Source of the DNA: Candidatus Saccharimonadota bacterium
Lineage (GTDB): Bacteria; Patescibacteriota; Saccharimonadia; Saccharimonadales; Saccharimonadaceae
Reading direction: 5' to 3'
Length of the DNA stretch: 32,000 bases
Assembly: GCA_020160975.1 (NCBI GenBank)
Contig: JAIUPJ010000001.1
Span: 90,001-122,000, forward strand
Part shown: positions 8,059 through 29,984 of the stretch, piece by piece
How positions within the stretch are numbered: position 1 is the first letter of the stretch
Layout of the letters: the number at the start of each line of letters is the position of its first letter
Program-made: the position numbers and the translations under genes
Notes under the pieces: generated by a model
Databases searched by the model: none
Told to the model about the DNA's origin: nothing
The model's input: the letters and a program-made list of their open reading frames with translations, nothing else

Positions 8059-8311
8059 ACTGGTATTATAGACTTCTGCTGTCATATGCCCAATTGTAAT
8101 AGTGCCTGGCGCTGACTTGGCCGACCCGGCGCAAACGATGTCGTCATCGGAGTTGTTATCTTGGCAACGATAGTGATGGAACCGAGCCGCGATTGCGAAA
8201 ACTTCAGCTGGCGCCAAGATCGTGGTGCGATGGCAAGGAGTAGGCCAGAAAAGTTTACTTTTCTGAACACGACGCAGATATATCTTGATACTCCTAGTAC
8301 CCTTGCCAAGC

Positions 8312-8345
8312 AAAACACCCGAGCGCATGCTCGGGTGTTTTTCTG
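8312..8345 (-). terminator. Rho-independent terminator after the surface protein gene
   Basis: 13-bp perfect stem 8312-8324 / 8329-8341 (AAAACACCCGAGC..GCTCGGGTGTTTT) with a GCAT loop. T-runs on both strands. Confidence 0.75.
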
Positions 8346-8360
8346 TACGTGATGGGGGCG

Positions 8361-9899
8361 TTATCGCAGCGAGCGTCGGCTTGCGATGAAGGCATAGCTC
8401 GCACCAACGATGCTCCCGAGGCCGAGGACATTGCCCAGGCTATCCTCTAGACCCGTCTTTGGTAGTTCGATTGTAGGCGGCGTAACACATTTGTCCATAT
8501 CGGTCGTCATGGTCGTGCTATCAAAGTCTTTCTTGGCGATATCTTTGGTGGTTTTGTCTGCAATGACACAGACGCGCATCTGACCACACTTTGTTTGGTC
8601 GAGCGTCATGTGAGACTCGTCGAATTGATCGCGCGTGATTGTCTTGATCGTATTGTCAGTCAGGTCGCAAACCGTGATGTATTCATACGTCTCGGTCTCG
8701 GCCGTGTCACAATCATCAGGGTTCGTACCAGGTATCGTTGGCGTCTCGACACAAACAGTATTAACATGAGTACCAGCCGTGAACTTGGTGTACTTGGCGG
8801 TCAATGTAAAGCTCTTTGATGCACCGACCGCTAGTTCAGGCAAGGTGTATGTCCAGGTGTTGCCCTGGATAGTCCCGAGATTATTGCTACCAATGAGCGA
8901 AACCTCGGACGGTGCTTTGTCAGTGATAACGAGATTCTTCAGGACAACATTGCCGGTGTTTTTTACTGAAATTTGGTAGGTGAAGGTGTCGCCGACTTTC
9001 ACTTTGACATGCTCTTGGTCGTTAACCGTTTTGACGATCTGCACTGCAGGTTTGTCCTCGACACAACGCGGGTCATCCTTCGGATACTGCTCTTTGCCAG
9101 GGACTGGACACATCTCGGGAGCAATCGTTACGGTTGTTTTGCAGCTCCCAGGGGCATTCACAACCTGCCCATTGACAGTCACTCGAACTGTCACCGAAGC
9201 AGTATAGGTACCAGGCTTTGCGTAGGTATGAGAGACGCTTGCGCCAGCTGTCTGGGTGGCGCCATCGCCAAAGGTGTAGGCATAGTCTTTGATAACAGCG
9301 CCATCTTTTGCAGTGGCGGCTGTCGTGAAACTATAGGTAGTACGGTTTGTCGGAGTCGCCTTCAGGCTGTCGCATTTGTATACCGGCTGAACAGGGATAA
9401 CCTTGTTTGTTGCTTTTACCGGGTTGCCACAATCGTAGAGAACAGCTGCAATGAACCGACCCTGTGCGTCGAAGAAAACGATGGCACCAATCTGTGAAGA
9501 GACAAATGACGTCTGTGTCGAGCGAGTATAGAAGGTCGTGCCGCCAATACTCTGCGTTGCACTCCCCGCCATATACTGGCGACCGGCTGATACCGCGTTA
9601 GTCGCAACAACCTTGCCGTCGACCACTACATCTCCGCTCTTTGTGACATAGCCTGTTTTGTTGCTGGCATGATTGACAACGTCAGAAGTCAAACCAAACC
9701 AACTAAAGATGTTTTGTGTGCCTGCCGGAGTATTAGCGTTGAATTTGTCGCGCAACTGACCAATCGATGTGACTCCACAGGTAATTACCGCATTGGCCGA
9801 ACAATCAGCCGCATTTACGGGGTTATTGGCACTCGCAACGCCAACAAACGCACCGACCGCTATGACTGCACCGGCAATCATAAGTTTCACTTTGTTCAT
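8361..9899 (-). CDS. LPXTG-anchored surface protein with PKD-like and DUF11-like repeat domains
   Basis: Signal peptide MNKVKLMIAGAVIAVGAFVGVASA. PKD-like FGDGATQTAGASVSHTYAKPGTYTASVTV. DUF11-like VGDTFTYQISVKNTGNVVLKNLVITD. C-terminal LPKTG, hydrophobic stretch and RRSLR sorting signal. Strong SD (GGGAGGAG) before the ATG. Confidence 0.85.
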   Translation of the reverse strand: MNKVKLMIAGAVIAVGAFVGVASANNPVNAADCSANAVITCGVTSIGQLRDKFNANTPAGTQNIFSWFGLTSDVVNHASNKTGYVTKSGDVVVDGKVVATNAVSAGRQYMAGSATQSIGGTTFYTRSTQTSFVSSQIGAIVFFDAQGRFIAAVLYDCGNPVKATNKVIPVQPVYKCDSLKATPTNRTTYSFTTAATAKDGAVIKDYAYTFGDGATQTAGASVSHTYAKPGTYTASVTVRVTVNGQVVNAPGSCKTTVTIAPEMCPVPGKEQYPKDDPRCVEDKPAVQIVKTVNDQEHVKVKVGDTFTYQISVKNTGNVVLKNLVITDKAPSEVSLIGSNNLGTIQGNTWTYTLPELAVGASKSFTLTAKYTKFTAGTHVNTVCVETPTIPGTNPDDCDTAETETYEYITVCDLTDNTIKTITRDQFDESHMTLDQTKCGQMRVCVIADKTTKDIAKKDFDSTTMTTDMDKCVTPPTIELPKTGLEDSLGNVLGLGSIVGASYAFIASRRSLR

Positions 9900-11365: not shown

Positions 11366-12967
11366 ATGATCGTCAACGTCAATCAACGCACTGCGAGCAT
11401 TATTCATGTTGCCGGTTTTTTAATACCCGTGATTTTGACGTTGTACGGATTCCTTATATTACTCAAAATCGTCCAGCCGTCCCAGCAGGTTGACCCGTGG
11501 ATATTCGGCATTATCACGGGGGGATGGATTGTGCTCGGTACGTATCAGTTACTCGTTGCCTCACGCAGTAAAACCGAATCTGCACTCCGGCTAGCTGGAT
11601 ATCATCTGTTTACAATAGCTTATATCTTGCTTATTGCTGGCTTCTCGATGCCGTTTATTTGCATTTGGGCAGTGCTTTTCTTGGCATCTTACGAATTCTT
11701 TTCTAATGATGGACTCCGCCTAAGTATCGTAGCACTGGTCGTAACAGCGGTTGCCGATACCATCATCAACCTCGGCGATGACCGTTATGTGATCACAAAT
11801 ATTATCTCGCTGGTTGCAACACTCTTGGTGGGTATGATCGCCACACAAGTAAGCCAAGCTCAACAAGTTGATCGCCAAGAACTTAGCCAGGCGCGAACCG
11901 ACGGCCTACGTGAGCGTGATCGCGCCGTTACGCTCATGAATAATCTGACCGATGCTGTACTCGCCACCGACAAAAATGGCATCATCCTCGTCTACAATGC
12001 CGCCTGCCTCAATCTCCTCGACACCAACGCCGAGCTCACCAATCAGCCGATCGATGCCGTGGTGTCTGTCCAAGATAGCGATGGCAAGCCACTCAAGCTA
12101 AGCAAATCCCTCCGTGATGCAAAGAGTGTGGTTAGTCGAGATGATCTCAGCGCCGTGATTTCCGATGAAACCATTCGACTCAGTACGGTCTTTTCGCCAA
12201 TTCGTAGCACCAACAGTAATAGCAAGTCTGCCGAGGGCTATATCGTGATTCTGCGCGACATCACCAAACAAAAATCGCTCGAAGAAGAGCGCGATGAGTT
12301 CATCAGTGTAGTTAGCCACGAACTTCGTACTCCGATCACCATCGCTGAGGGCACGCTTAGCAACGTGCAGCTCATGATGAGCCGGCGTGACATTCCTCAC
12401 ACCACACTGGCCAACAACGTCACTGTAGCACACGAGCAGGTTGTATTCTTGGCAAAGATGGTCAACGACCTCAGCACTCTTAGCCGTGCCGAGCGCGGCG
12501 TAGCCGATACGCCCGAAGAAATTGATGTCAGCCAGATGGTACACGACCTCTATAGCGAATACGCCCCTCAAGCCGAAGCCAAAGGCCTTCAGTTCAACCT
12601 AGCGCTTGACCCCCAGCCTGGCACTGTCTTCGCTAGCCCGCTCTACCTCAAAGAGTTACTGCAAAACTTTGTGACAAACGCTATCAAGTACACCAAGAAA
12701 GGCGACATTCTGCTACGGGTGACAAAGCAAGATGATACACTCGAATTTTCGGTCAAAGACAGTGGTATTGGCATCAGTAAGTCCGACCAAGAGCGTATTT
12801 TCGATAAATTCTGGCGAAGCGAGGACTACCGGACGCGCGAGACGGGGGGTACAGGCTTGGGACTTTATGTGGCACGCAAGCTTTCTCGCAAGCTCAACAC
12901 CGAGATTCACCTTAGCTCGCGGCTCAATCATGGCTCAACATTCCGCTTTAGCTTGCCACTAAAATGA
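11366..12967 (+). CDS. Membrane-bound PAS sensor histidine kinase
   Basis: About 5 N-terminal TM segments, a PAS-like region, H-box SHELRTPIT, N-box and GGTGLGLYVARKL ATP lid. Start set at ATG 11366, 5 nt after AAGGGGAGG, rather than the GTG at 11348. Confidence 0.85.
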   Translation: MIVNVNQRTASIIHVAGFLIPVILTLYGFLILLKIVQPSQQVDPWIFGIITGGWIVLGTYQLLVASRSKTESALRLAGYHLFTIAYILLIAGFSMPFICIWAVLFLASYEFFSNDGLRLSIVALVVTAVADTIINLGDDRYVITNIISLVATLLVGMIATQVSQAQQVDRQELSQARTDGLRERDRAVTLMNNLTDAVLATDKNGIILVYNAACLNLLDTNAELTNQPIDAVVSVQDSDGKPLKLSKSLRDAKSVVSRDDLSAVISDETIRLSTVFSPIRSTNSNSKSAEGYIVILRDITKQKSLEEERDEFISVVSHELRTPITIAEGTLSNVQLMMSRRDIPHTTLANNVTVAHEQVVFLAKMVNDLSTLSRAERGVADTPEEIDVSQMVHDLYSEYAPQAEAKGLQFNLALDPQPGTVFASPLYLKELLQNFVTNAIKYTKKGDILLRVTKQDDTLEFSVKDSGIGISKSDQERIFDKFWRSEDYRTRETGGTGLGLYVARKLSRKLNTEIHLSSRLNHGSTFRFSLPLK

Positions 12968-12976
12968 CCTACGTTT

Positions 12977-13070
12977 CGGAACCTTTCCGACGTACCGTAC
13001 AGCGACTGCAGCACTGATGCCCCTAAGAGACATCAAGCGCGTAGAATGATACGGAGTGGGAGATTTTGAG
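12977..13070 (+). repeat. Copy 1 of a ~100-nt structured repeat (core CCGTACAGCGACTGCAGC at 12995-13012)
   Basis: About three quarters identical by my hand alignment to the reverse complement of 29316-29413. Shares the core and outer arms with 29192-29300. Confidence 0.8.
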
Positions 13071-13087
13071 ATGTAGGCCAACTTTCA

Positions 13088-13116
13088 TTGCTCTTAATCA
13101 TATTGTATGGTATAGT
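13088..13116 (+). promoter_or_regulatory. Sigma-70-type promoter
   Basis: TTGCTC (13088-13093) N17 TATAGT (13111-13116) with a TGg extended -10. Confidence 0.5.
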
Positions 13117-13188
13117 CGTATTTTGTCAGCACATCACGTCAACACATGGACACCATTACTCATACTCAACCTAGAGGGGGTGAAAAAC

Positions 13189-13302
13189 ATGTCGAAGTTC
13201 GTCAAGCTCGCGGTGGGCGCGCTGGCCCTGCTGAGCCTCGCTGCCGTCGGTGGCATCATCCACGAGCTCATGCGCGATGACGGATCGGGCCTGCCATACT
13301 GA
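13189..13302 (+). CDS. 37-aa hydrophobic peptide (single TM), unknown function
   Basis: ATG 8 nt after GAGGGGG. Sequence MSKFVKLAVGALALLSLAAVGGIIHELMRDDGSGLPY. 32 of 37 codons end in G/C (my count), a strong frame-specific bias. Confidence 0.45.
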   Translation: MSKFVKLAVGALALLSLAAVGGIIHELMRDDGSGLPY

Positions 13303-13316
13303 TTGCGGGCCCTCAA

Positions 13317-23384: not shown

Positions 23385-24104
23385 GTGGCGGTATATAGCA
23401 ACACCGAGATACGAAAGGCAATAAAGGACGGCACAATTGTATGCGTGCCATATAACGACACGCATGTCAGCGAAGCCAGCCTCGATTTCACATTAGGACA
23501 TTATTTTTACAAACAAGAGCACGACGCCAAAAGCTCCGTTTACAATCCATTTGACGAAGAAGACGTCGAGCGATACTTCAAAGGACCACTCGAAGCCATG
23601 CCGCACCGGGAATGGTGCGACAAATACGGTTACCAACTATTTAAAAACATTCCTGAAGACCATCCCATCATCGTCTTGCAGCCAGGAGAGCGCATCCTCG
23701 CTCACACCCATGAATTTATCGGCATTCGCGCACATGGTGGCGCGTGTGAAGTGCGCTCACGAAGCACATGGGGGCGCAATGGCGTGGCAGTATGTTTCGA
23801 CGCTGGGTGGGTCGACCCAGGCTATATCAACCGCATCACCCTCGAGATATATAACCTCAATATGCACGAAGCCGTCGTACTTCCTGTCGGCGAACGCATG
23901 GGTCAGCTCGTGTTTATGACCACCGGTCCTGTCGACGGCTCATATGCCGAAGGCCGCAAAGGTATCAGCGGCAAGTACCAGGCAACCGACGACCTCGACG
24001 AGCTCATTGCCACCTGGCAGCCAAACGATATGTTGCCGCGCGCCTACAAGGACGCGCGAACTCTCCCACGGAAAATCAACGGGTTGCGGAAAGGAGTGCA
24101 GTGA
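23385..24104 (+). CDS. dcd: dCTP deaminase family protein (dUTPase superfamily) with C-terminal extension
   Basis: SNTEIRKAIKDGTI ... SLDFTLG ... LQPGERILAHTHEFIG ... SRSTWGRNG ... DPGYINRITLEIYN ... GERMGQLVF parallels E. coli Dcd. GTG 23385 lies 5 nt after AGGAGGAG. Confidence 0.8.
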   Translation: MAVYSNTEIRKAIKDGTIVCVPYNDTHVSEASLDFTLGHYFYKQEHDAKSSVYNPFDEEDVERYFKGPLEAMPHREWCDKYGYQLFKNIPEDHPIIVLQPGERILAHTHEFIGIRAHGGACEVRSRSTWGRNGVAVCFDAGWVDPGYINRITLEIYNLNMHEAVVLPVGERMGQLVFMTTGPVDGSYAEGRKGISGKYQATDDLDELIATWQPNDMLPRAYKDARTLPRKINGLRKGVQ

Positions 24105-24817
24105 TGGCAGGCGAGGTACTTGCAGGTAGAGAAGGTGATGAAAAAAGAGGCCCTAGATCGACCATCGAGCGTCCATACTCTGGCTATTACGCACGAGTGA
24201 ATGGTGGCGATGGCGTGGGCAAAACCACACTCATCAAACGAGCAGAAGCATATGCACAGGCCCACGATCTACCCCTGATAACCGTACGCGAGCCAGGTGG
24301 CACACCGACCGGCAACTCCATCCGAGACATACTACTCCATGACAGGTCTGTTCACCTATCACCGGAAGCTGAAGTTGCGCTTTTTTCGGCAGACCGACGC
24401 ATAACCTGCGACACTGTGAGCTTGCCGTGGCTTCAACAAAACGGCATCGTCCTTGGCGATCGAGGGTTTGAAGCCAATGTCGCCTACCAGGGAGCTGGCG
24501 GGGAGATCGATATCGAAAAAGTGATCGCAGTCAGTGAAGCTATTATGCCCCGTTGGTACATTTACCCGGATGCAATGATAAATCTGTATATCAGCGAAGA
24601 AGAACGTATACGGCGACTCTACTCATCACTTGCTGCCACCGGCGAAAAGGCCGACAAGATCGAACAAAGGGCTGCTGAATATCATGCTCGAGTCGCAAAG
24701 ATCCAGCACTATATTGCAGAACGTTTTGGCGGCATCATGATTAATGCCGAGTGCTCGCCAGATGAAGTGTTTGAGCAAGCAAAGCCCTACCTTTTCGGGC
24801 CGTTTCTTGCCGCCTAG
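24104..24817 (+). CDS. tmk: Thymidylate kinase (with ~35-aa N-terminal extension)
   Basis: GGDGVGKTT P-loop and VREPGGTPTGNSIRDILL. ATG lies 7 nt after AAGGAG and overlaps the dcd TGA (GTGATG). Confidence 0.85.
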   Translation: MAGEVLAGREGDEKRGPRSTIERPYSGYYARVNGGDGVGKTTLIKRAEAYAQAHDLPLITVREPGGTPTGNSIRDILLHDRSVHLSPEAEVALFSADRRITCDTVSLPWLQQNGIVLGDRGFEANVAYQGAGGEIDIEKVIAVSEAIMPRWYIYPDAMINLYISEEERIRRLYSSLAATGEKADKIEQRAAEYHARVAKIQHYIAERFGGIMINAECSPDEVFEQAKPYLFGPFLAA

Positions 24818-24836
24818 CTCCTGAGTCGTCTACGCC

Positions 24837-25667
24837 TTATCTTTCTGACGAGCGCTCATCTTCGCCCGGAGCTTGCCTCGACAAATACAATGATTCGACA
24901 ATCGGATGTACCTGAACGCCGTTATATCGAATCGCTTGGTCTACTTCAGCCCGCAGATCATGAATTGTGCCTCTCGAGTCTTGATCGGCAGGCAACGTCC
25001 CAAGCACAGCCAGCAAATTTGCCGTGTGGCGGTCGTCAACCTCATCGAGTGCTATCACGCCGGCCTGCCGTGATTTCAGTGTCACGACATCGCTCCTCGC
25101 TTCGTCTGCTAATGTACCGATCGATGCCTTGGCCGATACAACCGCGAACCTCCCCATGGGGTGGGCAATCACTCTCGTCACCTTTGGCACGTGAAATTCA
25201 ATGTCTTGCTCGACGCTGAGATAATTGCGCGCACTAAACAGCCGCAAGGCAGACATTGCAAATCCTAGATCGCGAAATCCATATCCGTCCAGGGTAAATC
25301 TTGCAAATACTTCATATGCACGCATATATTTGTTTTGCGTAAACAATGCCGAGCGCTCCACTGCAGACATCTCACCCAGTTCTTTTTGGGAAACTTGAGC
25401 ATATTGTACTGTCTCGGCTTGCGAAAGCCGCCCTAAGTCTGTCTCGGTAAATGTCTGACTGGACTCATAAATACGACGATGCAAATTAGTACTAATAACA
25501 CCCTGCACAATATCCGGGGGGATATCAACACTCGTACGTCTCATCGCCTCAGCAATATCATCAGCATGCTCTCTGCTCATTTCTCGAGGACTCCTATTGC
25601 GTGCGAATGGCACAGTGGGCAGAGAGACGTCAGGCGCTTCAAGCGCTCGTCTATACGGTGAATTCAT
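24837..25667 (-). CDS. Hypothetical protein (276 aa)
   Basis: Long ORF. ATG lies 7 nt after a TTGCAA-N17-TATAAT promoter. No domain recognised. Confidence 0.6.
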   Translation of the reverse strand: MNSPYRRALEAPDVSLPTVPFARNRSPREMSREHADDIAEAMRRTSVDIPPDIVQGVISTNLHRRIYESSQTFTETDLGRLSQAETVQYAQVSQKELGEMSAVERSALFTQNKYMRAYEVFARFTLDGYGFRDLGFAMSALRLFSARNYLSVEQDIEFHVPKVTRVIAHPMGRFAVVSAKASIGTLADEARSDVVTLKSRQAGVIALDEVDDRHTANLLAVLGTLPADQDSRGTIHDLRAEVDQAIRYNGVQVHPIVESLYLSRQAPGEDERSSER

Positions 25668-25703: not shown

Positions 25704-25983
25704 TACTCCCATCTGTTGACGAGACACTCCTGTTGTGATACATTTGTATGTAGACATTGCCAAAGACAGTAGCGGGTGAATAATCGCCGATAAGAAGCTA
25801 CCGAGGGAATTACATTCTTTCAGAAGTCTTTGCGCGTAGGTGCAGAGATTTTTTATTTCGCAGTGGTCTACCTTAACAATGTGGTCGAACAGAATTACAC
25901 CTTTTAACAAAGCTAACCTAGAAAGTTGTCATGATGACGAAAGTCATCGTGGCGGGTTTCGGCAAAAAGGAGAAGATTATCCC

Positions 25984-27242: not shown

Positions 27243-27755
27243 GTGGCTCGCACCACCAACACCCGTCGCCCCCAGAGGCCCAAGGCTGACAAGTTCGGTC
27301 TGGTGTTCGACAGCAATGTCGGCAAGCAGTACCGCAAGATAAAGCGTGACGACAACAACTCGGCACGTCCGCAGCGCAGCCCTCACTACATGGAGTACTT
27401 CGTACTTCGCGGTCGGCGCATTCGCGATGATGCGGCCACCTGGGGATGTCACGAGCTCCTCGACGAAGTCGAGAGCTGCAGTGTCCAGCCGAGCACCCTA
27501 CGCGTGCCTCGGCGGTACTCGACCAAGACCCCCGCCAAGGTGGTCAACGCGCCGGTGCCGCTCAATCGGAGCTTCGAACTGCCAGTCAAGACTCGGTTCT
27601 CCGAGTTGCGACGCAGTCGGCTCAGCGATGCCGAGCTAGCCAAGCTGCTGCCGTCACACATCCGTGTGCGCCCGCAGCCGGCCAGGGTCACCTTGGAGCT
27701 CCCGAAGCACCTGCGGTGCCCGGAGGACGAGGAGCAGCGTTCGCCCTGCGCCTAG
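27243..27755 (+). CDS. Arg/Pro-rich basic hypothetical protein (170 aa), high-GC codon usage
   Basis: GTG 6 nt after AGGAGAA. 33 of the first 40 codons end in G/C (my count), so this frame rather than the overlapping ORFs is coding. No domain recognised. Confidence 0.55.
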   Translation: MARTTNTRRPQRPKADKFGLVFDSNVGKQYRKIKRDDNNSARPQRSPHYMEYFVLRGRRIRDDAATWGCHELLDEVESCSVQPSTLRVPRRYSTKTPAKVVNAPVPLNRSFELPVKTRFSELRRSRLSDAELAKLLPSHIRVRPQPARVTLELPKHLRCPEDEEQRSPCA

Positions 27756-28677: not shown

Positions 28678-29166
28678 ATGAAAGCTCATGACAACGTCGT
28701 TGATTTGTCGAGTGAGCCGCTGGGGAGTCGCTATATTTGGCCTGCGCCCGATATCCTGCGTACCAGCGAATCTTCAGACCCTACTGAGCTTGCCGTCTCG
28801 GGACAGCGCGAACTCAAGCTGGGGCAGGCACTGTGCCGGCTTGGGTCGCCGAGCATTATGATCTTTAACGCCCTGCAAACACTCACCGAGCAGCAGGGGC
28901 GCGAAGCATCGTTTGCATGGGAAGATATCGAACGCGAGTTACGGAATGAAAGGTATGGGTTCAACCAGTATCATCGATTTTATAATGTCGCGGCGATACG
29001 ACTCTCACAATATCTCGGCTATCTTGCTCAAGTATCTGGTAATCCCTTCGATGCCGTTGTCCGTTCAGAGCCTCGAAATGCTGAGCAAACGCACAGCACC
29101 GGTAACCCGTATCTGTACAGCTTTAATCCTTCTCTCCAAATCAAAGACGAACGCCCGCAATTGTAA
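28678..29166 (+). CDS. Hypothetical protein (162 aa)
   Basis: ORF with its own promoter. No domain recognised. Confidence 0.55.
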   Translation: MKAHDNVVDLSSEPLGSRYIWPAPDILRTSESSDPTELAVSGQRELKLGQALCRLGSPSIMIFNALQTLTEQQGREASFAWEDIERELRNERYGFNQYHRFYNVAAIRLSQYLGYLAQVSGNPFDAVVRSEPRNAEQTHSTGNPYLYSFNPSLQIKDERPQL

Positions 29167-29191: not shown

Positions 29192-29300
29192 CCTATATCT
29201 TAAAACCTCCTCTCTTCACGCCGTACAGCGACTGCAACCCGAGACACAAAGTGGCTCGGCGTGAAAGGGAGTGTGAAGAGAGGAGGTTTTTAGATATAGG
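29192..29300 (+). repeat. Copy 2 of the structured repeat (long hairpin, core CCGTACAGCGACTGCAAC at 29221-29238)
   Basis: 28-nt arms 29192-29219 / 29273-29300 pair with one mismatch. Inner hairpin CCGAG-a-CAC / GTG-g-CTCGG. Confidence 0.8.
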
Positions 29301-29315
29301 ATGTAGAGCCTGAGT

Positions 29316-29413
29316 CTCAAAACCTCCCACTCCACACCCCCCTACGCGCCTGATATCTCTTACAGAGACACCAGGGCTGCAGTCGCTTTACGGTGTGTCG
29401 GAGAGGTTTTGAG
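29316..29413 (-). repeat. Copy 3 of the structured repeat, inverted orientation
   Basis: The plus strand carries GCTGCAGTCGCTTTACGG (29376-29393), the reverse complement of the core. Closest relative of copy 1. Confidence 0.8.
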
Positions 29414-29430
29414 GTCTAGAGCGTAAAACC

Positions 29431-29459
29431 TTGACATTACGATAATTTTTTGCTATAAT
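29431..29459 (+). promoter_or_regulatory. Consensus promoter
   Basis: TTGACA (29431-29436) N17 TATAAT (29454-29459) with TGc. Confidence 0.65.
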
Positions 29460-29528
29460 AAATATTGAATTATCCACCACTCAGCTGTGCGGATAGTCCG
29501 CACCTATCAAGTAGAGAAGAGACCCCCG

Positions 29529-29984
29529 ATGGGAAACACCAGTGTTATCGAGTCACTCGAGGGCATCATGGACTACGTCCTTCGTCTCGAGCGGCAGATC
29601 GGTAACCTCGAGGCCATGCTCCGCATAGCGGAGGCGCGCACGGCGCAGCCGCACGCTTGCTACCGCGAGGGTTACGTCGATGCGTCGCGTCAGTTCGAAC
29701 AGATCGCCGGCCGCATCGGCAAGGCCTGGGGAGCTCGTGTCGACCCCGGCAAGAGTGCCTCGAAAAAGCCGAGCTCCGAGCTGCTCGCAAAGAGCATCGA
29801 CACGCTCGGTCTGCCGACGCGCATCACCAACCCGATGCACGTGAACAACATCCACACGATCGGCGACCTCATCAAGTGCGATGAGATTGACCTGATCACG
29901 ATGCGCAACTTCGGTGAAGAGGCGCTCAAGAAGGTGGAGTCCGAACTTAGCAAGCTCGGGCTGTCCCTTCGCCGGAACGACTGA
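29529..29984 (+). CDS. Stand-alone protein with RNA polymerase alpha-subunit C-terminal-domain-like (HhH) module
   Basis: LLAKSIDTLGLPTRITNPMHVNNIHTIGDLIKCDEIDLITMRNFGEEALKKVESELSKLGLSL aligns by eye with E. coli RpoA CTD ([62 protein letters not shown]). 32 of the first 40 codons end in G/C. Start is uncertain: ATG 29529 preferred over GTG 29487, which lies inside a perfect hairpin. Confidence 0.65.
   Translation: MGNTSVIESLEGIMDYVLRLERQIGNLEAMLRIAEARTAQPHACYREGYVDASRQFEQIAGRIGKAWGARVDPGKSASKKPSSELLAKSIDTLGLPTRITNPMHVNNIHTIGDLIKCDEIDLITMRNFGEEALKKVESELSKLGLSLRRND

What the first reader, a model, noticed from the sequence alone, without database searches (positions are those of the whole stretch)
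29192..29413. Two oppositely oriented copies of an unrecognised ~100-nt structured element
Two ~100-nt elements in opposite orientation lie between the stop of the 28678-29166 ORF and the promoter of the alpha-CTD-like gene. Copy 2 (29192-29300) is a long hairpin. Its 28-nt arms, CCTATATCTTAAAACCTCCTCTCTTCAC and GTGAAGAGAGGAGGTTTTTAGATATAGG, pair with one mismatch. They enclose the core CCGTACAGCGACTGCAAC and an inner hairpin (CCGAG-a-CAC/GTG-g-CTCGG). Copy 3 (29316-29413) has the same core in reverse complement, the same AAAACCTC/GAGGTTTT outer helix, and an inner 12-bp hairpin. That inner hairpin has two G-U pairs in the minus sense, which would be A-C mismatches in the plus sense. The core is almost invariant (17 of 18 in each pairwise comparison), while the helices differ in sequence yet keep pairing. 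This looks like selection on structure, meaning an RNA or a structured DNA site, rather than a decaying duplication. There is no transposase and no obvious target-site duplication, and I do not recognise the family.
Basis: seen in the sequence. Interest (0 to 1): 0.75.

Follow-up and report, generated by a model that had tools for sequence, protein, structure and literature searches.

The report
Small palindromic intergenic repeat in Saccharibacteria
Three copies of a roughly 110-base hairpin-forming repeat sit between genes of an uncultured Saccharibacteria (CPR) bacterium; it looks like an undescribed family of the small palindromic, probably mobile, intergenic repeats common in bacteria, sitting where transcription terminators sit, and not like a new structured RNA.

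Summary
Three ~110-nt elements (12968-13077 +, 29192-29300 +, 29309-29420 -) share a core, CCGTA[C/A]AGCGACTGCA[G/A]C. It occurs 3 times against 0.02 expected. Each folds into a long hairpin (z -5 to -9). Independent assemblies carry them, so they are not artefacts.

No Rfam family, plasmid, phage or viral contig matches. No transposase or integrase lies nearby and there is no consistent target-site duplication.

Strains of the same species (4-fold-site divergence 3-14%) differ at the paired locus. Nine haplotypes carry both copies. One carries a single, oppositely oriented, poorly folding relative of copy 2. Copy 1 is missing from the orthologous site in three sister species, and one of these has a truncated remnant at a different site.

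Conservation is uneven: copy 2 differs by 1-2%, copy 3 by about 6% and copy 1 by about 12%. G-U strand asymmetry is strong only in copy 3.

Every copy lies between a gene stop and the next promoter. Each keeps an A-tract / GC-rich stem / U-tract layout like this genome's ordinary terminators.

Best reading: a low-copy, MITE/ERIC/Correia-like palindromic repeat that probably also terminates transcription. Selection on an RNA structure is not demonstrated. Both whole-collection scans filled with chance hits, so genome-wide copy number is unknown.

The parts
12968..13077 (+). Copy 1 (type-A inner hairpin). It begins one base after the TGA stop (12965-12967) of the histidine-kinase gene and ends 10 nt before a promoter-like TTGCTC-17-TATAGT at 13088-13116.
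   Evidence: (I1, I2). Present with 14 differences in strain L272. Absent from the orthologous site in L258, L261 and L273.
12995..13012 (+). Core of copy 1: CCGTACAGCGACTGCAGC.
29192..29300 (+). Copy 2 (type-B inner hairpin). The arms are 28 nt with one T-T mismatch and are perfect in strain L248. It starts 25 nt after the stop of the 162-aa ORF.
   Evidence: (I3). Absent in this form from strain L246/L247.
29221..29238 (+). Core of copy 2: CCGTACAGCGACTGCAAC.
29301..29308 (.). 8-nt linker (ATGTAGAG) between the two oppositely oriented copies. It is the centre of a second-order quasi-palindrome formed by copy 2 and copy 3.
   Evidence: (I10).
29309..29420 (-). Copy 3 (type-A inner hairpin; the sense strand is the minus strand). 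It has 5 G-U pairs in sense. It ends 10 nt before the -35 hexamer of the promoter of the alpha-CTD-like gene.
   Evidence: (I1, I2). Its extent was set from other strains.
29376..29393 (-). Core of copy 3: CCGTAAAGCGACTGCAGC on the minus strand.
29431..29459 (+). Consensus promoter TTGACA-17-TATAAT (with TG) of the downstream alpha-CTD-like gene. It is context, not part of the element.
   Evidence: Conserved in all strains.
28678..29166 (+). 162-aa ORF of unknown function, which copy 2 follows. It is context.

Best explanation
The elements are members of an undescribed, low-copy family of small non-coding palindromic repeats in one Saccharibacteria species. The family is of the same kind as bacterial MITEs and ERIC, Correia or RUP elements.

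Each unit is about 110 nt. It has long inverted-repeat arms (CCTA.A.CT.AAAACCTC... / ...GAGGTTTT.AG.T.TAGG) around an asymmetric interior. The interior holds a conserved 18-20-nt core and a small inner hairpin that comes in two types, A and B.

Shown: copies are dispersed, occur in either orientation, and change by gain, loss, replacement or flipping between closely related strains. They are absent from orthologous sites in sister species.

Inferred: the units spread, or once spread, by transposition or recombination catalysed in trans by an enzyme encoded elsewhere in the genome.

Also inferred: each copy lies exactly between a gene stop and the next promoter, and keeps an A-tract, a GC-rich stem and a U-tract. 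When transcribed in either orientation it probably forms a hairpin that acts as a bidirectional intrinsic terminator or a 3'-end stabiliser for the upstream gene. That would explain why insertions at these spots are tolerated or kept.
For: 1. Repeat family. There are three copies at two loci 16 kb apart, with nhmmer E = 1e-29 to 1e-36, and the core occurs 3 times against 0.02 expected.

2. Arms and hairpins. The arms are 28-33 nt and the folds have z of -5 to -11.

3. Strain-level structural polymorphism. All the relatives used are the same species, with 4-fold-site divergence of 3-14%. Nine haplotypes carry copy 2 plus copy 3. L246/L247 carry one element in the minus orientation that is 81% identical to copy 2 when aligned sense to sense. 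The adjacent ORF is 98% identical.

4. Empty orthologous sites. Copy 1 is absent after the kinase gene in L258, L261 and L273, where the kinase is 67-69% identical.

5. Remnant at a new site. L258 has a truncated family member upstream of the kinase gene, where the window has only a 48-nt spacer.

6. Uneven conservation, as expected for copies of different age: 1-2% for copy 2, about 6% for copy 3 and about 12% for copy 1.

7. Terminator position and layout. Copy 1 starts 1 nt after a stop codon and copy 2 starts 25 nt after one. Copies 1 and 3 both end 10 nt before a promoter -35 hexamer. The AAAA-CCTC...GAGG-TTTT(T) layout is kept in all copies, including the decayed L246 element. This genome's ordinary terminators have the same A-tract / stem / U4-7 layout and were the only weak hits of the covariance model.

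8. No match to Rfam, plasmids, phages or viral contigs.
Against: - No target-site duplication is consistent across copies.
- No transposase was found in the window or in the flanks examined.
- Copy number looks low. The covariance model, run with filters off, found no further copy in about 62 kb of this genome.
- The most conserved part is an internal asymmetric core, not the termini. That is unusual for a transposase-mobilised MITE.
- No clean filled-versus-empty pair with exact junctions was obtained within the species.
- The L246 state cannot be derived from the two-copy state by one simple deletion.
- Copy 2 is more conserved (1-2 differences in 109 nt) than 4-fold sites. That could mean constraint, or a recent origin.
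- Termination is untested. The U-tracts are short (4-5 U) and the 'loop' between the arms is 50-60 nt.
Confidence: 0.55

Rival explanations
1. A strand-specific structured RNA, either a small RNA gene or a 3'-UTR cis element. Its hairpin and asymmetric internal loop (the core) would be maintained by selection at the RNA level.
For: - Copy 3 folds much better in sense than in antisense (-57 against -41 kcal/mol in the window; -54 against -31.5 in L248). It has 5-6 G-U pairs and no A-C mismatch. Three further strain substitutions give or keep G-U or A-U pairs in sense.
- Pairing is kept in 96.6% of cells, with 8 double-sided changes.
- The core and the 3'-side loop residues are better conserved than the arms.
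- Copy 2 is more conserved than 4-fold sites.
Against: - Sense orientation is not linked to the direction of transcription. Copies 1 and 2 run with their neighbours; copy 3 and the L246 element run against them.
- No promoter-like site was found on the sense strand of copy 3.
- The L246 element does not fold better than shuffles.
- Copy 1 evolves at or above the neutral rate.
- Copy 1 and L246 show no G-U bias. The tally is about 12 pair columns with G-U against about 7 with A-C.
- Rfam has no match.
- The element is absent from orthologous sites of sister species.
Confidence: 0.12
2. A single-strand DNA hairpin element recognised by an HUH/Y1-type enzyme (REP/REPIN with a RAYT, or an IS200/IS605-derived palindromic element) or by a site-specific recombinase (attC-like). 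The asymmetric core would be the recognition or cleavage site. This is a mobile repeat with a strand-specific, TSD-free mechanism.
For: - There is no target-site duplication.
- The conserved feature is an internal asymmetric motif inside a hairpin, not the termini.
- G-T wobbles are tolerated in the arms.
- Two units lie head to head, as in REP doublets (I10).
- The same site holds different family members in different strains, which suggests targeting of an existing hairpin.
Against: - No Y1 transposase, RAYT or integrase hit among the neighbouring ORFs.
- The GTAG/CTAC tetranucleotide of REPs is not consistently present at the ends (CCTAC/GTAGG only in copy 1).
- The attC R''/R' consensus (RYYYAAC / GTTRRRY) is not matched by the ends (read).
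- Units are about 110 nt, not 20-40 nt.
- Copy number appears low.
Confidence: 0.13
3. Not mobile. These would be elaborate terminator hairpins that arose by local or segmental duplication and are reshaped by quasi-palindrome template switching and by gene conversion between copies.
For: - All copies occupy terminator positions and have the terminator-like A-tract / stem / U-tract layout.
- Copies 2 and 3 together form a larger quasi-palindrome, as an inverted duplication would produce (I10).
- No TSD, no transposase and low copy number.
- Mosaic sharing of end variants between strains suggests recombination. GAGGTCTAG occurs in the window and L246, and GAGGCTCAGG in the other strains.
Against: - Copies 16 kb apart share 71% identity over the full unit, including a non-palindromic core that is not needed for a terminator.
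- A remnant lies at a third, non-orthologous site in another species.
- Copy 1 is absent from orthologous sites.
- Copy 3 is type A, like the distant copy 1, and not like its neighbour copy 2.
Confidence: 0.12
4. Guide-RNA units of an RNA-guided system: a TIGR stem-loop array, or an IS110-type bridge RNA.
For: TIGR systems occur in CPR bacteria, and some arrays consist of variable palindromic stem-loop units (PMC12045711). The elements are hairpins with a conserved internal motif.
Against: - There is no tandem array.
- The units lie in opposite orientation and at unrelated loci.
- No Nop-domain, RuvC, HNH or IS110-type protein hit among the neighbours.
- There are no conserved box C/D motifs across copies (read).
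Confidence: 0.02

Closest known systems
ERIC/IRU elements of Enterobacteriaceae and Correia (NEMIS/CREE) elements of Neisseria (comparison from my own knowledge of these families)
   Same: About 100-150-nt non-coding imperfect palindromes. They sit in intergenic, co-transcribed positions next to gene ends, occur in either orientation, and form long RNA hairpins. Correia elements can terminate or process transcripts. Presence or absence varies between strains.
   Different: There is no sequence similarity to anything in the plasmid or phage collections or in Rfam. There is no TA or other target duplication. Here the internal asymmetric core is better conserved than the termini. Copy number looks low (3 in about 62 kb, two of them at one site). 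The host is a CPR bacterium, and I found no description of such repeats there.
MITEs in the strict sense (deletion derivatives of DDE insertion sequences)
   Same: Small size, terminal inverted repeats, no coding capacity, dispersed copies and insertion polymorphism.
   Different: No target-site duplication, and no parent IS with matching ends was seen. The arms make up more than half of the unit and vary at their tips.
REP/REPIN elements mobilised by RAYTs
   Same: No target duplication. Hairpin-forming. Adjacent units lie in inverted orientation. They are located after genes.
   Different: The unit is three times longer. No conserved GTAG/CTAC was found. No RAYT was seen. The core occurs once per unit, not as an inverted doublet.
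Bidirectional intrinsic terminators
   Same: An A-tract, a GC-rich stem and a U-tract, placed between a stop codon and the next promoter. This genome's ordinary terminators have the same plan.
   Different: The arms are separated by 50-60 structured nucleotides that hold a conserved core. The same sequence family recurs at unrelated genes.

Membership tests
MITE / small palindromic intergenic repeat | Short (under about 300 bp), with no coding capacity | tested here: met
   The units are 109-112 nt. Only spurious 42-45-aa ORFs cross them, and gene callers called none.
MITE / small palindromic intergenic repeat | Terminal inverted repeats | tested here: met
   The arms are 28 nt and 96% complementary in copy 2 and perfect over about 33 nt in L248. 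The consensus ends are CCTA.A.CT.AAAACCTC / GAGGTTTT.AG.T.TAGG.
MITE / small palindromic intergenic repeat | Direct target-site duplication flanking each copy | tested here: not met
   The flanks of copies 1 and 2 share no direct repeat. Copy 3 has TAGAGC on both sides in the window, but not in the other strains.
MITE / small palindromic intergenic repeat | Multiple dispersed copies in a genome | tested here: inconclusive
   Three copies at two loci in about 62 kb, and no more with model R1 run with filters off. The rest of the genome could not be read. Both collection scans were saturated by chance hits.
MITE / small palindromic intergenic repeat | Presence/absence polymorphism at orthologous sites | tested here: met
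   Two units against one unit at the same site within the species. Copy 1 is absent in L258, L261 and L273. L258 has a remnant at a site that is empty in the window.
MITE / small palindromic intergenic repeat | A cognate autonomous element or transposase with matching ends | not testable with these tools
   None in the window or in the 10-kb extensions.
REP/REPIN | A 20-40-nt palindrome with a conserved GTAG/CTAC tetranucleotide, inverted doublets, and a RAYT gene | tested here: not met
   The unit is about 110 nt. CCTAC/GTAGG occurs only in copy 1. No Y1_Tnp hit among the neighbours. Whether a RAYT lies elsewhere in the genome could not be tested.
Integron attC site | R'' RYYYAAC and R' GTTRRRY ends, uniform orientation after cassettes, and an IntI nearby | tested here: not met
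   The ends do not fit the consensus. Copies 2 and 3 are adjacent in opposite orientation with no ORF between them. No integrase was found.
Any Rfam RNA family | Score at or above the family's gathering threshold | tested here: not met
   Only the L10 leader, elsewhere in the window, passes. In E-value mode the elements hit only generic miRNA-precursor hairpins at 13-27 bits against thresholds of 60-135.
Intrinsic (Rho-independent) terminator | A GC-rich stem immediately followed by a U-tract, located after a gene | tested here: inconclusive
   The stem plus U4-5 and the position are present in both reading directions. The consensus scan does not call them because the loop exceeds 8 nt. Function is untested.
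TIGR array / bridge RNA | A tandem array of units next to a Nop-domain Tas protein, or next to an IS110 recombinase | tested here: not met
   No tandem repeat. No such protein was found. The defining features were taken from PMC12045711.

The most novel reading that the evidence does not exclude
The conserved asymmetric core inside the hairpin could be the recognition site of a so-far unseen enzyme or RNA-binding factor. The family would then be a strand-specific element of a new type in CPR bacteria. One form would be an ssDNA-hairpin mobile element that targets existing terminator hairpins, which would explain why the same site holds different family members in different strains. Another form would be a functional minus-sense RNA, which would explain the one-sided G-U pattern of copy 3.
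Probability: 0.12. Interest if true: 0.55.

Novelty: new member of a known kind. Interest (0 to 1): 0.3.

Why it matters
Small palindromic repeats are routine in well-studied bacteria. In the paper library available here I found none described for Saccharibacteria or other CPR bacteria, whose genomes are tiny and generally poor in mobile DNA.

A defined family with strain-level polymorphism gives three practical things:
- a strain-typing marker for this lineage;
- a warning for annotators, because these hairpins can be mistaken for RNA genes and can break assemblies;
- a possible example of terminators supplied by a repeat element in a reduced genome.

It does not open a long-standing question. 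The interest is modest unless the conserved core turns out to be the handle of a new mobilisation or RNA mechanism.

Tried and rejected
1. Whole-collection pattern scans.
- An nhmmer check showed only chance matches among the returned loci. The two Saccharibacteria hits, L020 and L083, show no similarity to the element beyond the core itself.

2. A viral-contig scan with a two-part pattern gave 0 hits.

3. blastn in distant mode against plasmids and phages gave no match.

4. Rfam at gathering and at E-value thresholds gave nothing relevant.

5. Extending the genome 10 kb to the left (L264) and 10 kb to the right (L121) gave no further copy.

6. The covariance model R1 was run over sister-species loci L261, L262 and L273. 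It gave no copy. The L273 hit at 2318-2373 is an ordinary hairpin.

7. Target-site duplication was checked by eye at all ends and in other strains. None is consistent.

8. I tried to derive the L246 single-element state from the two-copy state by one recombination between direct or inverted arms. Neither a deletion nor a flip alone gives the observed orientation, inner-hairpin type and ends.

9. G-U versus A-C strand bias as a test for RNA-level selection is significant-looking only for copy 3 and does not hold for the family.

10. These were considered and rejected on missing defining features: attC, REP/REPIN, TIGR or bridge RNA, DGR template/variable repeats (no RT, no adenine-specific differences), DNA-uptake sequences (the core never occurs outside the element), 6S RNA and retron ncRNA.

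11. A literature search found no description of such repeats in Saccharibacteria or CPR bacteria.

Full report
WHAT IS THERE

The window comes from an uncultured Saccharibacteria (CPR) bacterium. Its proteins occur on JGI contig Ga0209572_1000043 (325.7 kb). A 97-99% identical genome is deposited as 'Candidatus Saccharibacteria bacterium', GCA_020428275.1.

Three copies of one element are present:
- copy 1 at 12968-13077 (+);
- copy 2 at 29192-29300 (+);
- copy 3 at 29309-29420 (-).

The 18-nt core CCGTA[C/A]AGCGACTGCA[G/A]C occurs exactly three times, against 0.02 expected. A profile built from the three copies finds them at E = 1e-29 to 1e-36.

Copy 2 has 28-nt arms with one mismatch (I3). 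All three copies fold into long hairpins, at -43, -61.4 and -57 kcal/mol, with z-scores of -5.1, -9.2 and -5.9.

The same sequences occur in independent JGI, ENA, Logan and NCBI assemblies, so they are not assembly artefacts.

- Core identity between copies 2 and 3 is 16/18, not 17/18.
- Whole-unit identities are 62% (copies 1-2), 71% (1-3) and 69% (2-3).
- Copy 3 extends a few bases further than stated.

ANATOMY

In sense orientation each unit has five parts:
1. A 5' arm, CCTA.A.CT.AAAACCTC followed by about 12 more nucleotides.
2. The core.
3. A small inner hairpin.
4. A G-rich 3' loop segment, (C)GCGTAG... or CGTGAAAG..., followed by GGG.GTGTG.
5. A 3' arm ending in GAGGTTTT.AG.T.TAGG.

The inner hairpin comes in two unrelated versions. 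Type A is in copies 1 and 3. Type B is in copy 2 and in the element of strain L246.

Copies 2 and 3 lie tail to tail, 8 nt apart. The whole 229-nt block is therefore itself a quasi-palindrome (I10).

CONTEXT

Copy 1 starts one base after the stop codon of a histidine-kinase gene. It ends 10 nt before a promoter-like TTGCTC-17-TATAGT.

Copy 2 starts 25 nt after the stop of a 162-aa ORF of unknown function. Copy 3 ends 10 nt before the -35 hexamer of a perfect TTGACA-17-TATAAT promoter, which drives a free-standing alpha-CTD-like gene.

No transposase, integrase, reverse transcriptase or Nop-domain protein was detected among the neighbouring ORFs.

KNOWN FAMILIES

- Rfam at gathering thresholds finds only the L10 leader, at 25742-25864.
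- With E-value thresholds the elements hit only generic miRNA-precursor hairpins, far below threshold.
- blastn against plasmids and phages, and a pattern scan of viral contigs, found nothing.
- Literature searches found no description of such repeats in Saccharibacteria or CPR bacteria.

DISTRIBUTION

My two large pattern scans were saturated by chance matches and returned no true relative. That is a failure of the search, not evidence of absence.

I then reached related genomes through homologues of the flanking proteins and their contigs. All contigs obtained through the alpha-CTD-like protein belong to the same species: 4-fold degenerate sites differ by 3-14% and whole loci by 1-3%.

At the paired locus:
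- Nine distinct haplotypes carry copy 2 plus copy 3.
- L246/L247 carry a single element. It is in the minus orientation and is 81% identical to copy 2 when aligned sense to sense (91 of 112).
- Its left end resembles the copy 2 end and its right end resembles the window's copy 3 end.
- It folds no better than shuffled sequence (z -1.25 on both strands).
- The ORF immediately upstream is 98% identical between these strains. The element block is therefore a hot spot of structural change.
- I could not derive one state from the other by a single deletion or inversion.

At the kinase locus:
- Copy 1 is present in strain L272 with 14 differences in about 115 nt.
- It is absent from the orthologous spacer in three sister species, whose kinases are 67-69% identical: L258, L261 and L273.
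- L258 carries a truncated family member (5' arm plus a core-like segment) upstream of the kinase gene. The window has only a 48-nt spacer there.

A covariance model, R1, was built from ten sequences. Run with filters off, it found no other copy in about 62 kb of this genome or in the relatives' loci.

IS THE STRUCTURE UNDER SELECTION?

On the ten-sequence alignment, 96.6% of cells pair and 8 of 32 pairs show changes on both sides. This is well above the shuffled and slid controls.

Several points weaken the inference:
- Five of the eight double changes are the single type-A versus type-B replacement of the inner hairpin.
- The sequences are few and closely related.
- Conservation is uneven. 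Copy 2 differs by 1-2 of 109 positions between strains, which is less than neutral sites. Copy 3 differs by about 6%, which is about neutral. Copy 1 differs by about 12%, which is at or above neutral.
- The sense-strand G-U excess is striking in copy 3: 5-6 G-U pairs, no A-C mismatch, and sense folding 15-22 kcal/mol better than antisense. Copy 1 has both G-U pairs and A-C mismatches. L246 shows no bias. By pair column the tally is about 12 with G-U against about 7 with A-C.
- Orientation is not tied to the neighbours' transcription. No promoter-like site was found that would transcribe copy 3 in sense.

Concerted changes of both arms are also what terminal inverted repeats from different source copies produce. 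Quasi-palindrome template switching produces them too (my own knowledge). Kept pairing therefore does not by itself show selection on an RNA.

LIKELY ROLE

This genome's ordinary gene ends carry hairpins of the classic bidirectional terminator plan. Examples are AAACAATACAAGTGG...CCACTTGTATTTTTTT after nusG and GAAAAACACCCGAGC...GCTCGGGTGTTTTGC at 8285-8362. These were the only weak hits of the element model.

Every element copy has the same plan at its base. An A4-7 tract precedes a GC-rich stem, followed directly by U4-7. It reads the same way on either strand, and even the decayed L246 element keeps it.

No other terminator hairpin lies between the upstream stops and the downstream promoters at either locus.

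I therefore infer, without a test, that the elements act as the terminators or 3' hairpins of the kinase gene and of the 162-aa ORF. This would explain why insertions at these positions persist.

VERDICT

The best-supported reading is an undescribed, low-copy family of small palindromic, probably mobile intergenic repeats of the MITE, ERIC or Correia kind. It is likely co-opted, or at least tolerated, as terminators (confidence about 0.55).

It fails the strict MITE criterion of a target-site duplication. A parent element could not be looked for. Its best-conserved part is an internal asymmetric core. This leaves room for three alternatives:
- an ssDNA-hairpin (HUH-type or recombinase) mechanism (about 0.13);
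- a strand-specific RNA (about 0.12);
- non-mobile duplicated terminators (about 0.12).

TIGR or bridge-RNA, attC, REP, DGR, DNA-uptake-sequence, 6S and retron readings were considered. Each was rejected because its defining features are missing.

Novelty: a new member of a known kind. Interest is modest.

Noticed in passing
window 29529-29984: The free-standing alpha-CTD-like gene (151 aa; Pfam RNA_pol_A_CTD over residues 80-141) is a divergence hot spot within the species. Strains are 80-99% identical at the protein level and differ by 9-11% at the DNA level. 4-fold sites differ by about the same amount, so dN is roughly equal to dS. The flanking genes differ by only 1-3%.
   Followed up: partly
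window 27243-27755: A 170-aa basic ORF with no family hit is present in the window strain and in L248. It is missing or replaced in strain L246, which shows a series of gaps across L121 8320-9140.
   Followed up: partly
L121 16824-17152 (about 35.5 kb in window numbering, outside the window): A segment of about 308 nt downstream of recR carries a called 105-aa minus-strand ORF. It is present in the window strain and in L246 but absent from L248/L249. This is another strain-variable insertion.
   Followed up: no
window 23700-25650: In the dCTP-deaminase / thymidylate-kinase region the window is only 70-73% identical to strain L248. There the DCD gene is split or missing and no thymidylate-kinase gene is called. 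Strain L246 is 91-96% identical over the same region.
   Followed up: no
window 13190-13303: A small hydrophobic 37-aa ORF (MSKFVKLAVGALALLSLAAVGG...) with its own promoter-like site lies between copy 1 and secE. A 38-aa ORF is called at the same place in strain L272, and different small ORFs are called there in L258 and L273.
   Followed up: no
L258 3215-3290: A truncated relative of the element (5' arm, a core-like CGGTAACGCGCTGCAGAC, and a short CTGAGA partner) lies between the YgjP-like gene and the kinase gene of a sister species. The window has only a 48-nt spacer there.
   Followed up: yes
window 25742-25864: A ribosomal protein L10 leader (Rfam RF00557, 50.3 bits against a gathering score of 44) lies upstream of rplJ. 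It is the only Rfam family that passes threshold in the window.
   Followed up: no
window 29421-29528 and 13078-13189: The promoter and 5'-UTR regions downstream of the elements differ by 11-13% between strains, with small indels. The -35 and -10 hexamers and a hairpin, GTGCGGATAGT.CGCAC, in the 5' UTR of the alpha-CTD-like gene stay conserved.
   Followed up: no
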